A model generated the notes under the pieces. That model was not told the DNA's origin. It saw only the letters and a program-made list of their open reading frames with translations, and made no database searches. Below, piece after piece: positions 10,970 to 44,324 of a DNA stretch of 64,000 nucleotides (within the stretch, counting starts at the first letter, position 1; each line of letters begins with the position of its first letter). A program made the translations under genes and the position numbers. Location of the stretch: positions 62,001 through 126,000 of the forward strand of contig JANNQV010000065.1 in the NCBI GenBank assembly GCA_031400935.1, read 5' to 3'. This stretch comes from Armatimonadota bacterium (GTDB taxonomy: Bacteria > Armatimonadota > Fimbriimonadia > Fimbriimonadales > Fimbriimonadaceae).

Positions 10970-11404
10970 GTGAATATCGTTATCGGCTTCCTTATCGGCA
11001 TGGTTGCAGGCGCACTTGGCGGAATGTTTGGCATCGGTGGAGGCATCTTGATGGTGCCTGCGATGGTCTATTTTCTTCACTTTTCACAGAAAATGTCACA
11101 AGGAACATCGCTTGCGGTCCTTTGCTTGCCTGTTGGGATTTTAGGAGCTTTCAATTATTATAAATCGGGCAACGTTGATCTCAAGGTTGCAGGAATTCTC
11201 GCTCTTGGCTTTGTTGGAGGTTCTCTTTTTGGATCCAGGCTGGCACTTGGTTTGCCTGAAGCCGCCATGAGAAAGGGATTTGCGATATTCCTAATCTTGG
11301 TGGCAGTTCAAATGTGGTTTAAGCCAACTCCTCTTGAATCGGCGCCCGCCGAATCTTCAATCCAGGCATCGGCGTTGAATCCGGTTGCAGAGAGTTCCAA
11401 ATAA
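10970..11404 (+). CDS. Half-size sulfite exporter TauE/SafE (TSUP) family protein
   Basis: GALGGMFGIGGGILMVP...QGTSLA motif; about four hydrophobic segments. Confidence 0.85.
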   Translation: MNIVIGFLIGMVAGALGGMFGIGGGILMVPAMVYFLHFSQKMSQGTSLAVLCLPVGILGAFNYYKSGNVDLKVAGILALGFVGGSLFGSRLALGLPEAAMRKGFAIFLILVAVQMWFKPTPLESAPAESSIQASALNPVAESSK

Positions 11405-29966: not shown

Positions 29967-30029
29967 TTGATTTAACCTGATTGACGATATAGAAATTACG
30001 AAAATTTCAAGAATTGTTGAAAATTCAAT

Positions 30030-30043
30030 TGTTAGTATACAAA
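30030..30043 (+). promoter_or_regulatory. Putative extended -10 promoter overlapped by a motif shared with the lexA promoter
   Basis: TG-T-TAGTAT; TAGTATACAAA (30033-30043) vs TAGTAGACAAA (54988-54998). Confidence 0.35.
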
Positions 30044-30082
30044 GTTCGGTTGACTGCTGTGTTATCGCCCATCGAACGGAGC

Positions 30083-31417
30083 ATGACTTCATTTCTCAAG
30101 GCAATGGCGCCAATTTGGAAACCGCATCCTGGCCAAACGGCATTTTTGAAGTCGAATTCACCGATCAAAGTGCTCGCTTGCGGTCGGCGATGGGGAAAGA
30201 CAGATGCATGCGCGGCGGAAGTCATTCGCTCGTTAACCACAAAACCTGACGGAAAGCACTTGCTCATTGCTCCGACTTTGGATCAGGCAACGATCCTATT
30301 TGACCGTGTGGTTGAACTTCTCGATTCCTTGAAGGAAATCTGGCCATTTGGAAGTCAGATTCCCGAAATGTCCATTCGCAGAACACCATATCCCAAACTT
30401 CGGTTCGGCGACCATCAGTTGAGCGCAAGATCGGGTCATGTTGGACGTTCGCTTCGAGGCAATGAGGCCAATCATATCGTGATTGACGAAGCTGCATTTG
30501 TTCCTGAAGAGTTGATCACCGAGATTGCGATGCCGATGCTTGCCACCACTAAAGGTACTTTGACCATGATTAGCACGCCTAGGGGAATGAACCATTTTTG
30601 GCGGTTCTTTCGGATGGGGCAAGAAGGCAGGAATCGCGTTTGGAGCCGAACGGCGCACTCAGCGGAATCTCCGTTTGTTTCCAAATCGTTCTTAGAGACC
30701 CAAAGAGATTTGATAAGCGAACGCGCCTATCGAATCGAATATGAAGCTGAATTCTGCGATTCGGAAGGGCGAGTATTTAGAACGGAAACGATTGAGCGAG
30801 CACTCGTTCCCTCAATGGATCGAAAGACTGATGCCCCCATTTGCATTGGAATTGACTGGGCACGATATACGGATTATTCAGCGGTAACAGTGGTTGCCGG
30901 GCATCGAAATGACGCTCAGTTATGGGAAACCGACCGATTTCATGGCCTGGCATGGGCACAGCAGATTGAGCGAGTTGGAAGGATTCTGGAAAGGTTTCCA
31001 AATGCCTCAGTTTTCTGCGATGCGACTGGAATTGGCGATCCGCTCCTTGAGATGCTTCGCGACCGCTTTACAACCTACTCGATCACTGGAACGACGTTTA
31101 CGGCAAGTTCAAAGGCGTTGCTAATTGATCGCTTGGCTTGGATGTTTGAAAACGATGCCCTTGTAATGGAGCCCCAACCCGATTTGATGCGGGAACTGCA
31201 ACATTTTGAATCCAAGGTGTCGAGTTCAGGAAACACGAAATTGGCGGCTGCACAGGGATTTCACGATGACTTGATCATGTCGCTCTCTTTGGCTTGCCAA
31301 GGTTGGAGGCAATCCTATTTTCCGGCAATACAACTTGGCGGCGAACGAGAGTTCAGCAAGAATCGCAAAAAACGAAATCAACGAATTGAGATTGAAAACA
31401 GCAAGAGGAAAAACTAA
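30083..31417 (+). CDS. Phage terminase large subunit (Terminase_6-like)
   Basis: PHPGQ, Walker A GRRWGKT, Walker B IVIDEAAF, ISTP coupling motif, RNase H-fold residues IGIDWA / FCDATG / HDDLIMS; start at 30083 or 30104. Confidence 0.92.
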   Translation: MTSFLKAMAPIWKPHPGQTAFLKSNSPIKVLACGRRWGKTDACAAEVIRSLTTKPDGKHLLIAPTLDQATILFDRVVELLDSLKEIWPFGSQIPEMSIRRTPYPKLRFGDHQLSARSGHVGRSLRGNEANHIVIDEAAFVPEELITEIAMPMLATTKGTLTMISTPRGMNHFWRFFRMGQEGRNRVWSRTAHSAESPFVSKSFLETQRDLISERAYRIEYEAEFCDSEGRVFRTETIERALVPSMDRKTDAPICIGIDWARYTDYSAVTVVAGHRNDAQLWETDRFHGLAWAQQIERVGRILERFPNASVFCDATGIGDPLLEMLRDRFTTYSITGTTFTASSKALLIDRLAWMFENDALVMEPQPDLMRELQHFESKVSSSGNTKLAAAQGFHDDLIMSLSLACQGWRQSYFPAIQLGGEREFSKNRKKRNQRIEIENSKRKN

Positions 31418-32508
31418 TGGCAAAGATATGGTCTTCATTTTCTCGCCGCAAAAAGCGGCTTGAACGAGAGGTGGCACCCCACCTGAATTTGGCTCAACGG
31501 ATGTCCCTCGAACAACCCGGCGTTCCTCCAAACGGACTCGCCTACTCGGTTTACGAACAGATGCAACAGGATGCAATGGTGCAGACTTCGCTTACATTGA
31601 AGAAGCTAGGGGCAATGGCACCTGAGTTCAAAATTGAAACCGATTCGGATTCAGATGAGGGGCAACGCCGTATTAATTTTGTGCTTGAAAATTTTGAGCA
31701 TATGAACGGTTCGCCGCATACGATTTTGCATCATGCGATGGACGCATTTGCCAAAGGCTGGTCTGTTCAAGAACTGATTTGGGAGGAGCGCAATGGCAAA
31801 ATCTGGCTAAGCGAAGTGAAAGCAAAGGACCCTAGCGTGTTTGGAATCGAAGCAGACGGTTATGGAAATGTCCAGTCGCTTCGCTTGCAGGTTCCTGGGG
31901 AAACGCAGCGGGAAGTGCCGAGCAGCAAGTTCGTGATCTATTCAAACCGGAGCAACTACTTGTTGCCAAAGGGAAAGAGCGATCTTGACGCGGCGTATCT
32001 TCACTGGAAGTACAAGCAATCGTTGCTAGGAGCTTGGAAGCTGCACTTGGAGCGATTTGCTTCTCCAACTGTGCTTGGCAAGTTCGCTAGAGGACTTCCT
32101 GCTAACGATCAGGCTTCTATTTTGGGACAGCTTCGACAATTGCATCAAAATACGGCGATAGTTTTTCCTGAAGAAGTCTCGATAGACACGCTTCGATCCA
32201 ACGGCGAAGGAACAACTGCCTTTCTTGAAGCTATTGACTATCATAATCGGGAAATTGCTAGAGCCATTCTAGGGCAGACATTAACTACAGATGAGGGCAG
32301 ACGGGTAGGTTCGCTAGCACTTGGCAAAGTTCATTTGCAGGTGCTTCTGATGCAGCTTGAATCCGTTCGCCGCGAATTGGCCGATATCGTAATGACAGAG
32401 CAAATCATTCGGCCCATGATCGAGATGAACTTTGGCGCAGGACCAATTCCACGGTTCGTATTTGAAAAGGTCTCTCTCAGTTCTTTCACAACCGGTGAAC
32501 TTAGCTAG
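31417..32508 (+). CDS. Phage portal protein, DUF935 (Mu gp29-like)
   Basis: DA..KGWSVQELIW, W..HLERFASP...GK, EIARAILGQTLT, GSLALGKVH, IIRPMIEMNFG; TAATG coupling with the terminase. Confidence 0.88.
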   Translation: MAKIWSSFSRRKKRLEREVAPHLNLAQRMSLEQPGVPPNGLAYSVYEQMQQDAMVQTSLTLKKLGAMAPEFKIETDSDSDEGQRRINFVLENFEHMNGSPHTILHHAMDAFAKGWSVQELIWEERNGKIWLSEVKAKDPSVFGIEADGYGNVQSLRLQVPGETQREVPSSKFVIYSNRSNYLLPKGKSDLDAAYLHWKYKQSLLGAWKLHLERFASPTVLGKFARGLPANDQASILGQLRQLHQNTAIVFPEEVSIDTLRSNGEGTTAFLEAIDYHNREIARAILGQTLTTDEGRRVGSLALGKVHLQVLLMQLESVRRELADIVMTEQIIRPMIEMNFGAGPIPRFVFEKVSLSSFTTGELS

Positions 32509-32528: not shown

Positions 32529-32558
32529 TTGCAAAAAACGTTGGAACTTTGCTATTCT
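32529..32558 (+). promoter_or_regulatory. Sigma70-type promoter of the secreted-protein gene
   Basis: TTGCAA-18 nt-TATTCT with TGn extension; AGGAG RBS at 32577. Confidence 0.5.
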
Positions 32559-32591
32559 CGCGCTAGACTAATAGGCAGGAGCTGTTTTTTT

Positions 32592-33887
32592 ATGCGACGA
32601 TTATTATTTGCTTCACTGTTTGCAATAGCTGGAATGGCTGTGGCTTACGATCCTGATCCATTGGGCGGATTCTTTACTGTTCAACATGGAAAAATCCGCC
32701 AAGCTGATGGTTCATATAGAGACATTTCTGGATTGAAAATACCGTTTACTGTCGAACCTGTTGGCAAGACGATTTGGAGGGGATATAAACCCTCAAGCTA
32801 TCGTCCCGGAGGAGAAAGCGACTCCCTACAAAAATGCTACGAAAATGACCGGCCAAACTTCTATTTCGGCAATGGATTACCTCAGCCTAGTGCTCTTGAT
32901 GATCTAACAACCAGCGGAATCGCTGTTGGAGCCGTTTGGCAGCGGCTAACTGTTGGCTGGTCCATCCCAAATCGAACAATTCCGTTTATAGTTTGGGGTG
33001 CTTACGATACGTTTTTGGGAGATATGGGCCCCGGTAACAGTGCATTTTCAAACCTCGTCGTAGATTCGTTTGGTGGACCGTTCACCCAGGTAGTTAATAC
33101 AACGATTTTCCCGCAAGTGCCTGGCGACTACATGATCACGTTTAACATCGCTGCGGCTGGCATTGTTCAAACCGACGATTCAATCTTCTTCTTCCAGCAA
33201 TTTCGGTCGGGCAACCATCTAGGGCCATTTCGAGACGATTGGGCTTGCTTTTTTTCGGGAGGTGGAGTGCCACAAATCGGTTCGAGCGAAGATCAATTCT
33301 GGTTTGACGACCCTGCGGATGGCATCTACGAATTCATGGAAGTTGATCTCTTCAATGCTGAAGGAGCAACGGACTTCCCAGCAAATTTTGCAATGAAATT
33401 GGAAGTAGATTCAAACTCAACACTGAGCGAGTTACCAGCGGCTGAGGTGCGAGTGATTGCCGGTACTGTCACTTCGGGAAATTACGTGAGCACGTGGAGC
33501 AGCAACAATGTGTACTTTACGATTAATACCGGAAGAACTAGAGGAATTGTCGTTTGGCCGATTGCGGTCGAATTCAAGACGTTTGCTCCGTCAGCCACCC
33601 TTCTGAGCCTTCAGGCGTTTCTTGAAGTTGGATCGAGTGCTGCCGGCCAAGATTTGCAGGTCTCGCTGTGGAATTACACCCTCGGAACTTGGACGCAATT
33701 GGACCTGGAGCAAACCACATTGGCAGACCAAACAATCACAAGGGTAATTGGAATCGGCCCGAGCCAATACGTGCATCCCTCGTCGCTTGAAATGAAAATG
33801 CTTGTCCGTGCGAAACCAGGCGGGAGCAGCCCCCGAACCTGGAACCTGAAAACTGACATGGTTAAGTGGCGAGTTTCGACGCTGTAA
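32592..33887 (+). CDS. Secreted beta-rich hypothetical protein
   Basis: Signal peptide MRRLLFASLFAIAGMAVA; aromatic/Gly/Asp-rich body; beta-sandwich-like C-terminal domain. Confidence 0.75.
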   Translation: MRRLLFASLFAIAGMAVAYDPDPLGGFFTVQHGKIRQADGSYRDISGLKIPFTVEPVGKTIWRGYKPSSYRPGGESDSLQKCYENDRPNFYFGNGLPQPSALDDLTTSGIAVGAVWQRLTVGWSIPNRTIPFIVWGAYDTFLGDMGPGNSAFSNLVVDSFGGPFTQVVNTTIFPQVPGDYMITFNIAAAGIVQTDDSIFFFQQFRSGNHLGPFRDDWACFFSGGGVPQIGSSEDQFWFDDPADGIYEFMEVDLFNAEGATDFPANFAMKLEVDSNSTLSELPAAEVRVIAGTVTSGNYVSTWSSNNVYFTINTGRTRGIVVWPIAVEFKTFAPSATLLSLQAFLEVGSSAAGQDLQVSLWNYTLGTWTQLDLEQTTLADQTITRVIGIGPSQYVHPSSLEMKMLVRAKPGGSSPRTWNLKTDMVKWRVSTL

Positions 33888-43757: not shown

Positions 43758-44324
43758 TTAGCCCGCATTTTCAACGCGTAGCTTAGCAAGTACTTCAAGT
43801 CTTTCTGGAAATTCGATAAGCTCCAAGAGTTCGGGAAGGGTGCTTTCAACAATGGTCCAATCAATTCTTTTCCCCTGCCTGACAATGATCCCGCGTACAT
43901 CCTCCCAATCCCTTGGACGCCCCGCAAAGACTTTCATAGTAATCATGTCTTCTGCACTGGCGAGAGGAAGAACAACGCCATCAGTAAGCTCGATGACTGT
44001 GCTTCGCGCCAAAACATCTTCTTCAAATGGAAATGCTGCTAGACCAATGTCAATGCCGATTCCGTTCGGAGATTGGCAGAGTAGCACTCTGTATTTCAAC
44101 GCTTGTTCGAGGGCACTTTCCGACCGAGCAGGAATTCGTGAAAGGATTGTCCCTACCTTTTGTTCTTCGTCATCGAATCCAGTCAGAACCGAAACATCCA
44201 CGTCCCTCGTGACTCTTGATTCGCCCCACGCTTGAAGGGCAATACCACCAATAAACGCATGCTGCAAACCAAGGTCAGAGAGTTCCGAATGAACCCACGC
44301 GGCGACGTCAAAAACATCGTTCAT
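43758..44324 (-). CDS. Nucleotidyltransferase toxin-like protein (MenT1/AbiEii/DUF6036-like)
   Basis: AFIGGIA...SRVTRDVD and AEDMITMK..AGRPRDWED. Confidence 0.8.
   Translation of the reverse strand: MNDVFDVAAWVHSELSDLGLQHAFIGGIALQAWGESRVTRDVDVSVLTGFDDEEQKVGTILSRIPARSESALEQALKYRVLLCQSPNGIGIDIGLAAFPFEEDVLARSTVIELTDGVVLPLASAEDMITMKVFAGRPRDWEDVRGIIVRQGKRIDWTIVESTLPELLELIEFPERLEVLAKLRVENAG

What the first reader, a model, noticed from the sequence alone, without database searches (positions are those of the whole stretch)
30083..32508. Orphan terminase + portal pair among core genes: candidate domesticated, GTA-like DNA-packaging module
Seen: a large terminase with all recognisable ATPase motifs (PHPGQ, GRRWGKT, IVIDEAAF, STP) and nuclease acidic motifs (GID, CDATG, HDD) is translationally coupled (TAATG) to a compact 363-aa DUF935 portal. 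It starts about 120 bp from the divergent ubiE and is followed by a secreted-protein gene with its own promoter. I recognise no integrase, att repeat, small terminase, capsid, tail, lysis or replication gene in the 64 kb, and no decayed phage fragments flank the pair. Known: gene transfer agents are host-maintained, phage-derived packaging systems whose genes can be split over several loci. Inference: this may be one piece of a dispersed, host-owned particle system in this lineage rather than prophage debris.
Basis: partly seen in the sequence, partly recalled or inferred. Interest (0 to 1): 0.88.

Follow-up and report, generated by a model that had tools for sequence, protein, structure and literature searches.

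The report
Host-inherited phage DNA-packaging gene pair
Two intact phage genes (a DNA-packaging motor and the portal it docks on) sit among core genes of an Armatimonadota bacterium and have been inherited vertically, under strong selection, as part of an ancient tail-less phage-head gene set that is spread through the phylum, although the capsid half of that set is not found in this genome.

Summary
Window 30083-31417 encodes a large terminase with every ATPase and nuclease motif, joined by TAATG to a 363-aa Mu-type portal (31417-32508); the other 56 ORFs of the window are host genes. It is not prophage debris. Related portals occur in 32 of 41 related genomes, TerL in 29 and a Mu-like capsid in 28. 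Portal, TerL and capsid trees each recover the taxonomic families and subclades seen in the PolA tree. The genes lie between different housekeeping genes and are often unlinked by about a megabase. Relatives carry a head operon: protease-like gene, structural protein, capsid, adaptor and stopper. No conserved sheath, integrase or replication gene was seen. Outside the order the set is one cluster with a small terminase and, in 4 of 6 loci, a cell-wall hydrolase.

For this genome it is only partly supported. No capsid, protease-like gene, adaptor, stopper or small terminase was found in the 95.6%-complete assembly, nor the capsid in its genus mate. Yet the pair evolves at dN/dS 0.04-0.07, like PolA. 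No function was tested and no RNA data were available. No paper found in my searches describes the system.

The parts
30083..31417 (+). Large terminase (TerL): N-terminal packaging ATPase and C-terminal RNaseH-like nuclease. 444 aa from ATG 30083; an alternative TTG start lies at 30014.
   Evidence: Pfam Terminase_6N 9.2e-10 and Terminase_6C 7.8e-07; phrog_2 7.6e-49. Closest solved chains by sequence are entries titled 'Phage terminase large subunit': 4zni over query residues 12-183 (2.1e-23) and 5tge/5m1f over residues 246-422 (about 5e-16). Walker A GRRWGK, Walker B DE, S/P of STP and nuclease Asp residues are invariant in 25/25 relatives. Single copy in the genome. dN/dS against the genus mate is 0.05-0.07.
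31417..32508 (+). Mu-type (DUF935) portal protein, 363 aa
   Evidence: PF06074 2.6e-64; phrog_113 5.1e-70. The portal profile matches chains named 'Portal protein': 9khx_X 1.4e-24 and 8rka_A 1.7e-23 (titles entry 9khx 'Neck structure of Escherichia phage Mu'). No singleton deviation at otherwise invariant columns. dN/dS 0.043. Related contigs in two other runs cross the site of the G001 deletion without gaps.
31415..31419 (+). TAATG stop/start overlap between TerL and portal (translational coupling inferred)
   Evidence: Read directly.
29967..30082 (.). Short divergent intergenic region between the probable ubiE start and TerL; presumed control region of the pair (inferred, no signal identified)
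   Evidence: Sequence. No sigma-70-like site was called here. The ubiE Pfam match begins at residue 61 of the longest ORF.

Best explanation
The pair is the DNA-packaging half of an ancient phage-derived head system that Armatimonadota inherit vertically like ordinary chromosomal genes. The half consists of the TerL motor/nuclease and the portal it docks on. The system derives from a Mu-like phage and has no tail genes.

In relatives the full set is TerL, portal, a protease-like protein, a small structural protein, a gpT-type major capsid protein, a head-tail adaptor and a stopper. Outside the order Fimbriimonadales there is also a small terminase and often a peptidoglycan hydrolase.

Inferred mechanism, by analogy with the named phage families and not tested here:
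- The portal ring seeds a procapsid.
- TerL binds the portal, pumps DNA in with ATP and cuts it with its nuclease.
- The adaptor and stopper close the filled head.
- Cell lysis releases the heads.
- In Fimbriimonadales the TerS recognition subunit is gone, so packaging would be unspecific, as in gene transfer agents.

In this genus only TerL and portal are found. Both are intact and under purifying selection as strong as in genomes with the complete set. I therefore read them as still functional. The head operon has most likely been lost here, and the capsid partner or new role of the pair is unknown.
For: Shown:
- Portal in 32/41 related genomes (one a 29%-identical prophage-type hit), TerL in 29/41 (including a pseudogene, a 37-aa remnant and a 25%-identical hit), gpT capsid in 28/41. 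Of the 31 genomes with the orthologous portal, all but G000, G001 and G016 have the capsid. None of the 10 genomes without the portal has it.
- In the portal, TerL and capsid trees every taxonomic family is one side of a branch, with the minimum possible number of label changes (0 of 200 shuffles as low). Subclades match the PolA tree. Patristic distances correlate with PolA at r = 0.88, 0.80 and 0.88; the portal and capsid values exclude family f2 and are 0.74 and 0.57 with it.
- Identity to G000 falls off much as for PolA: portal 59 to 42% and TerL 58 to 40% (f1, f3-f5), PolA 66 to 46%.
- In the 12 relatives' portal loci first fetched, the genes around the pair or portal are host genes that differ from locus to locus, for example L28, S20, L19, DnaK/DnaJ, RpoC and biotin carboxylase. 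The exception is G020, where the head operon sits beside the pair.
- TerL, portal and capsid are unlinked in several genomes, for example G039 at 2.27, 1.23 and 1.41 Mb.
- The core of the head operon (p319, p146, capsid) is present in 10 of the 12 relatives' loci fetched around a capsid or TerL hit; the capsid is in 11, and L044 was fetched around the unlinked TerL of G039. Capsid phrog_371 5.5e-60, p146 phrog_1731 1.3e-20, p319 weakly phrog_976 protease 1.6e-05.
- s140 has a head-tail adaptor fold (VIA Z 6.2-8.6 to HK97 gp6, the P74-26 neck, the Mu neck and the RcGTA virion). s100 has a stopper fold (lambda neck E 1.6e-03, TM 0.61; SPP1 gp16).
- Sheath PF04984 is in only 3/41 genomes.
- Phylum scan of 301 genomes: portal 104, capsid 92, both 77.
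- Six clusters outside the order lie in one stretch with host flanks (DnaA, accA/accD, AcrB), and a hydrolase lies beside the cluster in 4/6.
- TerS (phrog_2538 in 6/6) lies upstream of TerL in 5 of those 6 clusters and in viral contig L126, that is 6/7. It is found in 0/37 genomes of f1, f3, f4 and f5.
- Closest cultured-phage portal 27% identical; best of 2.9 million viral contigs 39%.
- G000 against G001 dN/dS: TerL 0.05-0.07, portal 0.043, PolA 0.036. Pairs with full systems give 0.06-0.15.
- All catalytic motifs are kept.
Against: - In G000 no capsid (PF05065, PF10124, PF25209, PF04454; PF03864 only 15 bits), no Mu F, and no second TerL or portal family was found.
- Custom HMMs for the head-operon genes found no significant hit in G000, and none at all for five of the six; the TerS HMM found none.
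- Of 1587 ORFs from Mu-like viral loci, only TerL and portal relatives hit G000 with more than a few queries.
- A packaging motor and portal without a capsid have no known function.
- The genus mate's portal carries a 1-bp deletion, which could be early decay.
- About a quarter of the relatives lack the whole system, and G016 and G040 show decay states, so it is dispensable.
- No expression data exist: no RNA run holds the locus. No particle, packaging or transfer was observed.
- Family f2 sits on very long branches and may be a separate acquisition.
- Genus g89 has multi-copy portals and capsids, so related elements may still be active phages. Vertical descent at the phylum level rests on family-wise presence only, not on trees.
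Confidence: 0.6

Rival explanations
1. The organism has the complete dispersed system, and the head operon lies in the unassembled or unbinned part of both MAGs of the genus. The reader's interpretation would then hold fully for this genome too.
For: - The pair evolves under the same constraint as in genomes with the full set and keeps all motifs, which is most simply explained if the capsid partner exists.
- G000 is 95.6% complete and G001 85%.
- The closest genus, G022, has the capsid on a 6.1-kb contig.
- Apart from this genus, all 25 related genomes with an intact TerL and the portal also have the capsid.
Against: - Two independent assemblies both lack the capsid.
- G000 keeps contigs down to 1.66 kb, so short contigs were not discarded.
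- All six head-operon HMMs and the TerS HMM gave no significant hit in G000.
- A naive joint chance of missing a 4-5 kb operon in both assemblies is about 0.044 x 0.15, under 1% (my estimate).
Confidence: 0.2
2. The pair is a non-functional relic. The head operon was lost very recently, and TerL and portal have simply not yet accumulated disabling mutations.
For: - The system is lost often: 10 of 41 relatives lack all parts.
- Intermediate decay exists elsewhere: G016 has an intact portal, a frameshifted TerL and no capsid; G040 keeps a 37-aa TerL remnant.
- G001's portal has a 1-bp deletion in an A-run.
Against: - dN/dS of 0.04-0.07 over dS 0.5-0.86 between the two species, both of which lack the capsid, means selection acted over most of that path.
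- Both ORFs are intact, and G000 shows only 2 (TerL) and 0 (portal) singleton changes at otherwise invariant columns.
- Contigs from other runs cross the G001 deletion site without a gap, so that deletion is private to G001 or an error.
- This reading needs two independent, very recent losses.
Confidence: 0.1
3. The pair is ordinary prophage debris or a recently acquired mobile element, that is, horizontal and not host-inherited.
For: - Both proteins are of phage origin.
- IMG/VR lists a related 10.6-kb contig as viral (L126).
- PHASTER-type tools have called similar regions 'incomplete prophage' in Fimbriimonadales MAGs (PMC8597652, table passage seen).
Against: - Trees follow the taxonomic families and the PolA tree.
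- No integrase, transposase or att was seen beside the pair in the flanks scanned, except one IS inside G020's head operon.
- GC equals that of the host.
- Single copy.
- Purifying selection.
- No close phage relative.
Confidence: 0.04

Closest known systems
Gene transfer agents (RcGTA-type and other viriforms)
   Same: - Phage-derived head and packaging genes inherited vertically with the host and under purifying selection.
- Split over several loci.
- No integration or replication genes seen beside them.
- TerS specificity altered (in RcGTA, recalled) or TerS lost (here).
- A hydrolase is linked in clusters outside the order.
- The RcGTA adaptor is among the structural matches of s140 (6tba, Z 6.2).
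   Different: - No tail genes go with the system: sheath in 3/41 genomes, and none in the 86 Mu-like loci that I compared with G000.
- The ancestry is Mu-like (DUF935 portal, gpT capsid), whereas RcGTA is HK97-like (that description is recalled).
- No particle, packaging or transfer has been shown.
- In this genome even the capsid is missing.
Capsid-forming phage-inducible chromosomal islands (cf-PICI)
   Same: The gene content is a head-only set (TerS/TerL, portal, protease, capsid, adaptor/connector) with no tail. Such heads could in principle take tails from a helper phage. The properties of cf-PICI are recalled from the literature and were not read here.
   Different: cf-PICIs are mobile islands with integrase, regulation and replication modules and a patchy distribution. 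Here none of these was seen in the flanks scanned, the genes are scattered among core genes, and the trees follow the host.
Bacteriophage Mu head module (gp28 TerL, gp29 portal, gpI protease/scaffold, gpT capsid, neck proteins)
   Same: - The portal is PF06074 and the capsid PF10124.
- Chains of the Mu neck entry 9khx are among the best portal sequence matches and among the adaptor fold matches.
- A true Mu-like phage contig with downstream genes of tail-like sizes holds homologues of the portal, s140, s100, p319, p146 and capsid (L127).
   Different: - The portal is shorter: 363 aa here against 512 aa for the solved chain 9khx_X.
- No transposase, Mu F (PF04233 absent in G000) or tail.
- Not one contiguous late operon.
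Cryptic or defective prophage remnants
   Same: Isolated phage structural genes in a bacterial chromosome, of the kind flagged 'incomplete prophage' by prediction tools (PMC8597652, passage seen).
   Different: Remnants are lineage-specific, decay neutrally and sit at former att sites. This pair is conserved across an order and phylum with dN/dS of about 0.05.

Membership tests
Large terminase, Terminase_6 (T4-like) family | N-terminal ATPase domain scoring above Pfam's cut-off, with Walker A, Walker B and the coupling motif | tested here: met
   PF03237 scores 39 bits against a cut-off of 22. GRRWGKT, IVIDE and STP are present, and their key residues are invariant in 25/25 relatives.
Large terminase, Terminase_6 (T4-like) family | C-terminal RNaseH-like nuclease with conserved acidic residues | tested here: met
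   PF17289 scores 29.6 bits against a cut-off of 22.6. The Asp residues of GIDWA, CDATG and HDD are invariant in 25/25. Sequence match over query residues 246-422 to terminase large-subunit chains 5tge and 5m1f.
Large terminase, Terminase_6 (T4-like) family | ATP-driven DNA translocation and cleavage activity | not testable with these tools
   Needs biochemistry.
Mu-type portal (PF06074, DUF935) | Profile match over the portal core, above the curated cut-off | tested here: met
   218 bits against a cut-off of 23.9, covering profile positions 1-302 of 336. The portal profile hits solved portal chains 9khx_X (1.4e-24) and 8rka_A.
Mu-type portal (PF06074, DUF935) | Dodecameric ring at a unique capsid vertex | not tested
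   No complex or structure prediction was run for the portal, and no capsid gene was found in this genome.
Gene transfer agent / viriform | Phage-derived structural genes inherited vertically with the host lineage | tested here: met
   Families are monophyletic in the portal, TerL and capsid trees, and subclades equal those of PolA. Distance correlation with PolA is 0.80-0.88.
Gene transfer agent / viriform | Purifying selection on the genes | tested here: met
   dN/dS 0.04-0.07 for G000 against G001; 0.04-0.15 in three other unsaturated pairs.
Gene transfer agent / viriform | The genome encodes a complete particle (capsid and so on), possibly at several loci | tested here: not met
   - In G000 no capsid, protease-like gene, adaptor, stopper or TerS was found.
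- In relatives a complete head set exists, but no tail.
- The G000 assembly is 95.6% complete, so absence is not proven.
Gene transfer agent / viriform | No autonomous replication, integration or excision genes with the structural genes | tested here: met
   Flanks of 12 loci in the order and 6 outside it are host genes. The only mobile-element genes seen are one IS (rve) inside G020's head operon and a tyrosine recombinase of the phage-integrase family about 3 kb from the pair in G009.
Gene transfer agent / viriform | Particles package random host DNA and deliver it to recipient cells | not testable with these tools
   Needs particle purification and sequencing.
cf-PICI (capsid-forming phage-inducible chromosomal island) | Mobile island with integrase, regulatory and replication modules next to the packaging genes | tested here: not met
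   No such genes flank the pair in the window or in the relatives' loci scanned; one tyrosine recombinase lies about 3 kb from the pair in G009, but no regulatory or replication module. Inheritance is vertical.
Defective prophage remnant | Patchy, lineage-specific presence with neutral decay | tested here: not met
   Portal in 32/41 genomes, with dN/dS of about 0.05 and intact motifs. Decay is seen only in some other lineages.

The most novel reading that the evidence does not exclude
In this genus the terminase-portal pair has outlived its own capsid and is kept by selection for a role that does not need the ancestral head. It might load DNA into capsids supplied in trans by another element, or act as a capsid-independent DNA-translocating or DNA-cutting machine. 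The wider reading is that Armatimonadota carry a phylum-wide, ancient, tail-less GTA-like head system that has lost its TerS in Fimbriimonadales and is here reduced to its motor and portal.
Probability: 0.2. Interest if true: 0.9.

Novelty: new variant of a known kind. Interest (0 to 1): 0.78.

Why it matters
Known gene transfer agents come from a handful of lineages, most with tails (recalled). Here a Mu-like, head-only gene set is conserved and inherited vertically through a whole order. Family-wise presence suggests that it spans much of a poorly studied phylum. The set is being scattered among core genes and has lost its DNA-recognition subunit in one order.

If particles are made, this would be a new, independently domesticated, tail-less DNA-packaging system. 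The phylum has cultured members (for example Fimbriimonas and Chthonomonas; close portal homologues are annotated as Chthonomonas sp. and Fimbriimonas sp. MAGs), but whether the cultured strains carry the set was not checked.

The genome in hand adds a sharper puzzle: a packaging motor and portal kept under housekeeping-level constraint with no capsid in sight. This bears on how phage parts are exapted. In practice it also shows that 'incomplete prophage' calls in these MAGs are a conserved host feature.

Tried and rejected
- The search of earlier findings was not open.
- Expression: no RNA holder is listed for the locus, so nothing can be said about transcription.
- Read laying on four DNA runs gave contigs only. 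It served only to show that related contigs cross the G001 deletion site without gaps.
- A clean deletion scar for the head operon could not be sought. Synteny with relatives is almost nil: flanks of the head operons in G022, G017, G021, G013 and G010 map to scattered G000 contigs.
- The single-protein scan of viral contigs found nothing; the alignment scan was needed.
- Profile searches of solved-structure sequences for s140, s100 and p146 gave only chance-level hits. Foldseek for s140 was weak, E at best 0.2, so I relied on VIA-align.
- The downstream 452-aa secreted protein was considered as a possible partner. I set it aside because it has no Pfam or PHROG match, the Atlas gave only unnamed clusters at 0.90, and outside the genus only a weak partial match was seen.
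- The promoter/terminator scan gave fewer sites than the shuffles.
- I did not scan the whole G000 proteome against PHROGs because the caps do not allow it, so an unrecognised capsid family cannot be excluded.
- I did not build trees at phylum level.
Full report
OBSERVATION

The window is G000:C65:62001-126000, from a 2.97-Mb assembly of 67 contigs that is 95.6% complete.
- The ORF ending at 31417 on the + strand gives 444 aa from ATG 30083. Relatives' TerL alignments begin at that residue.
- The portal ORF, 31417-32508 +, gives 363 aa. The two overlap as TAATG.
- TerL scores Terminase_6N 9.2e-10, Terminase_6C 7.8e-07 and phrog_2 7.6e-49. The portal scores PF06074 2.6e-64 and phrog_113 5.1e-70.
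Their catalytic residues are invariant in 25 of 25 aligned TerLs.
- The neighbours are ubiE, a polyprenyl synthase and a HAD hydrolase upstream, and glyQ, DUF817 and polA downstream.
- The remaining 48 ORFs of 80 aa or more are host genes, including nuo subunits, UvrD, flagellin, FabF, PFK, LexA and LpxA/B. None belongs to a phage-type Pfam family.
- GC content is flat across the locus.
- Names attached to portal homologues place the organism in Armatimonadota, family Fimbriimonadaceae.

NOT DEBRIS, BUT INHERITED
- Among 41 related genomes, G000 included, a portal relative is present in 32 (one of them, G011, a 29%-identical hit that I count as another phage's). A TerL relative is present in 29, including a pseudogene in G016, a 37-aa remnant in G040 and a 25%-identical hit in G015.
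- Identity to G000 falls with taxonomic distance. For the portal it is 51-59% for full-length matches within the family and 47-51%, 42-44% and 34-37% in three other families. This is much like PolA: 54-66% for full-length matches within the family and 46-56% in the other families.
- In maximum-likelihood trees of the portal (28 rows), TerL (25 rows) and capsid (26 rows), every taxonomic family is one side of a branch, with the least possible number of label changes (0 of 200 shuffles as low).
- The groupings f1+f5, f3+f4, {G009,G012,G024}, {G031,G034}, {G028,G036} and (G027,(G030,(G033,G039))) recur in the PolA tree.
- Patristic distances correlate with PolA at r = 0.88 (portal, f2 left out; 0.74 with f2), 0.80 (TerL) and 0.88 (capsid, f2 left out; 0.57 with f2).
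- Rows dropped: sequences shorter than 300, 380, 290 or 780 aa, and G035 from the correlations because its PolA was badly extracted.
- In the 12 portal loci first fetched, the pair, or the portal alone, sits between housekeeping genes that differ from genome to genome. Further loci fetched later also share no flanks with the window.
- The ubiE-TerL-portal-452aa order is kept only in the genus mate G001.
- In families f4 and f5, and in G022, TerL and portal are unlinked.
- The closest portal of a cultured phage is 27% identical (best of 519 matching records). The best of 2.9 million viral contigs is 39% identical.

THE REST OF THE SYSTEM, IN RELATIVES
- A Mu-like gpT capsid (PF10124) is present in 28 of the 41 genomes. 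Of the 31 genomes with the orthologous portal, all have it except G000, G001 and G016. None of the 10 genomes without the portal has it.
- HK97-type PF05065 capsids occur in only 3 of 41 genomes.
- The capsid is 65-75% identical across families f1 and f5, about 50% in f4 and 34% in f2.
- It lies in a conserved operon: p319 (weak protease match, phrog_976 1.6e-05), p146 (phrog_1731 virion structural protein, 1.3e-20), capsid (phrog_371, 5.5e-60), a variable small ORF, s137, s140 and s100. The three core genes are present in 10 of the 12 loci fetched around a capsid or TerL hit, and the capsid in 11; the twelfth locus holds only the unlinked TerL of G039.
- A model of s140 (pLDDT 79) aligns almost only with phage head-to-tail adaptors: HK97 gp6 Z 7.8, the P74-26 neck 8.4, the Mu neck 6.2-6.8 and the RcGTA virion 6.2. 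These Z values are middling, but the hit list is consistent.
- A model of s100 (pLDDT 93) matches stopper or head-closure proteins: the lambda neck at E 1.6e-03 and TM 0.61, and SPP1 gp16.
- The operon is usually far from TerL and portal. In G009 it is at 1.25 Mb against 0.49 Mb, and in G028 at 1.88 against 0.10 Mb. In G020, G023 and G008 it is adjacent.
- A contractile sheath (PF04984) is found in 3 of 41 genomes. No tail, integrase or replication gene flanks the operon.

ACROSS THE PHYLUM
- In 301 genomes the portal profile hits 104 and the capsid 92. Both are present in 77, portal only in 27, capsid only in 15, and neither in 182. Related genomes are not independent, so I give no test.
- Several families carry both genes almost throughout: f18 15/18 and 17/18, f25 14/15 and 14/15, f22 6/7 and 6/7.
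- Six loci from four such families hold the genes in one stretch of about 8 kb. Five run TerS, TerL, portal, p319, p146, capsid, s140, s100; in the sixth (L209, f18) no TerS or TerL was seen and the portal lies beyond s140.
- Single host genes are inserted within these clusters: an aquaporin, a GNAT, a GDSL lipase, an ABC ATPase and a LamG protein.
- A peptidoglycan hydrolase lies beside the cluster in 4 of 6 loci: after s100 in three, next to the portal in L209. The flanks are host genes such as DnaA, accA/accD and AcrB.
- The small gene upstream of TerL is a small terminase (phrog_2538 in 6 of 6, best 1.3e-10). It is present in 6 of 7 clusters (five of the six loci and viral contig L126). 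It was found in none of the 37 genomes of families f1, f3, f4 and f5, and only marginally in 2 of 3 f2 genomes.
- Genus g89 has up to four copies, which may be active phages.

THIS GENOME
G000 has one TerL and one portal and nothing else of the set.
- No hit for PF05065, PF10124, PF04233, PF25209, PF04454, PF03354 or PF04860. PF03864 gave only a 15-bit sub-threshold hit. PF03237 hits only this TerL.
- HMMs built from the relatives' capsid, p146, p319, s140 and s100 found nothing at E up to 10 among 59,349 six-frame ORFs. s137 gave only E of 0.23 or worse. The TerL and portal controls scored 7.6e-188 and 1.8e-169. The TerS HMM found nothing.
- Of 1587 ORFs from 86 Mu-like viral or prophage loci, only TerL relatives (21 queries) and portal relatives (69 queries) hit G000 with more than three queries. 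All other places were hit by one to three queries; those I looked at were flank-type or unannotated ORFs.
- Contigs down to 1.66 kb are in the assembly.
- The genus mate G001, 85% complete, also lacks the capsid.
- The nearest genus by PolA, G022, has TerL, portal and capsid.

The pair nevertheless looks functional.
- Nei-Gojobori dN/dS for G000 against G001 is 0.05-0.07 for TerL, 0.043 for the portal, 0.036 for PolA, 0.10 for the polyprenyl synthase and 0.19 for ubiE, at dS 0.5-0.86 (1.47 for PolA).
- Pairs that own the complete system give similar values. G031/G034: TerL 0.08, portal 0.058, PolA 0.077. G030/G039: 0.149, 0.106, 0.099. G025/G029: portal 0.058, capsid 0.038. More distant pairs were saturated.
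- G000 shows 2 (TerL) and 0 (portal) singleton changes at otherwise invariant columns, against a maximum of 5 elsewhere.
- G001's portal has a 1-bp deletion in an A4 run near window position 31798. Contigs of related populations in two other runs cross that site without gaps, so the deletion is private to G001 or an error.
- Decay is seen elsewhere. G016 has an intact portal, a TerL broken by a frameshift and stops, and no capsid. G040 keeps 37 residues of TerL.

READING
- Shown: phage origin; intactness; vertical descent within the order; purifying selection; the existence of a head-only partner operon in relatives; loss of TerS in the order; and no head genes found in this assembly.
- Inferred: that the system builds DNA-filled, tail-less heads released by lysis and packages DNA unspecifically (GTA-like); and that in this genus the head operon is really lost while the pair retains a function.
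- My rough weighting for this genome: true loss with a retained function about 0.6; head operon present but unassembled about 0.2; recent relic about 0.1; horizontal debris under 0.05.

LITERATURE
- Six searches of the held library found no description of this system. The term sets were: Armatimonadetes + terminase + portal; Fimbriimonas + gene transfer agent; Armatimonadota + gene transfer agent; Chthonomonas calidirosea + prophage; gene transfer agent + Mu-like + domesticated + portal; Armatimonadetes + Mu-like.
- The Fimbriimonas ginsengisoli genome paper (PMC4072686, passages read) reports only an inducible 45.5-kb prophage.
- PMC8597652 (passages read) lists an 'incomplete' 7.1-kb 'portal; head; capsid' region without an att site in a Fimbriimonadales MAG and does not interpret it.
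- Supplementary tables of these papers were not opened and might list the genes.
- The properties of RcGTA, cf-PICI and phage Mu used for comparison are recalled from memory, except where a call is cited.

Noticed in passing
window 32529-33887 (+); probable start about 32592: A 452-aa protein with a signal-like N-terminus lies just downstream of the portal. It has no Pfam or PHROG match. It is conserved in the genus mate (89% aa, dN/dS 0.08), but among the relatives' loci compared only a weak partial match was seen. The nearest Atlas clusters are unnamed hypothetical proteins (score 0.90), with lectin-like leads.
   Followed up: partly
relatives' capsid genes, e.g. G024:C3:205483-206379; also the prophage copy G039:C1:678313-679191: Every Armatimonadota gpT-type capsid matches Pfam PF10124 in three pieces, in the order 5-148, 217-289, 150-216. 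Two segments are therefore swapped relative to the model. This is seen in the domesticated copies and in a true prophage alike.
   Followed up: no
L083 (G039:C1:664000-683900); genus g89 genomes G323, G166, G148: G039 also carries a separate Mu-like region with its own portal (26% identical to the window's) and its own capsid. One genus elsewhere in the phylum has 2-4 portal and capsid copies per genome, which suggests still-active phage relatives of the domesticated set.
   Followed up: partly
L211 6409-7179, L206 12034-12639, L210 14561-15409, L209 9998-11347, L207 13553-14320: Single host-type genes are inserted inside the otherwise contiguous head clusters of other classes: an MIP aquaporin, a GNAT, a GDSL lipase, an ABC ATPase and a LamG-like protein. 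This looks like the start of the scattering seen in Fimbriimonadales.
   Followed up: no
L017 4374-5234 (G020): An IS element (rve integrase core) sits inside the head operon of G020, between the capsid gene and the small downstream genes.
   Followed up: no
L003 (G001:C406), aligned to window position about 31798: The genus mate's portal gene has a 1-bp deletion in an A-run that splits it into 130-aa and 189-aa ORFs. The deletion is not seen in contigs of related populations from other runs.
   Followed up: yes
window 10970-11401 (+): A 144-aa ORF matches only the first half of the TauE sulfite-exporter profile (positions 2-114 of 237), and its 3' end overlaps the UvrD-like helicase gene. It may be a truncated gene.
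   Followed up: no
window 43761-44324 (-): A 188-aa AbiEii-like nucleotidyltransferase (type IV toxin-antitoxin toxin family), with a partial profile match.
   Followed up: no
protein P0034: A portal 59% identical to the window's is labelled 'Methanoregulaceae archaeon' in a public record, while other close homologues are labelled Fimbriimonadaceae, Chthonomonas or Armatimonadetes. It is probably a mis-binned contig.
   Followed up: no
G034:C24:2656-3596 (L066): The capsid gene of G034 is read in two open frames (250 and 176 aa), and its dN/dS against G031 is raised (0.20, against 0.06-0.08 for TerL and portal). This may be a frameshift or an assembly error.
   Followed up: no
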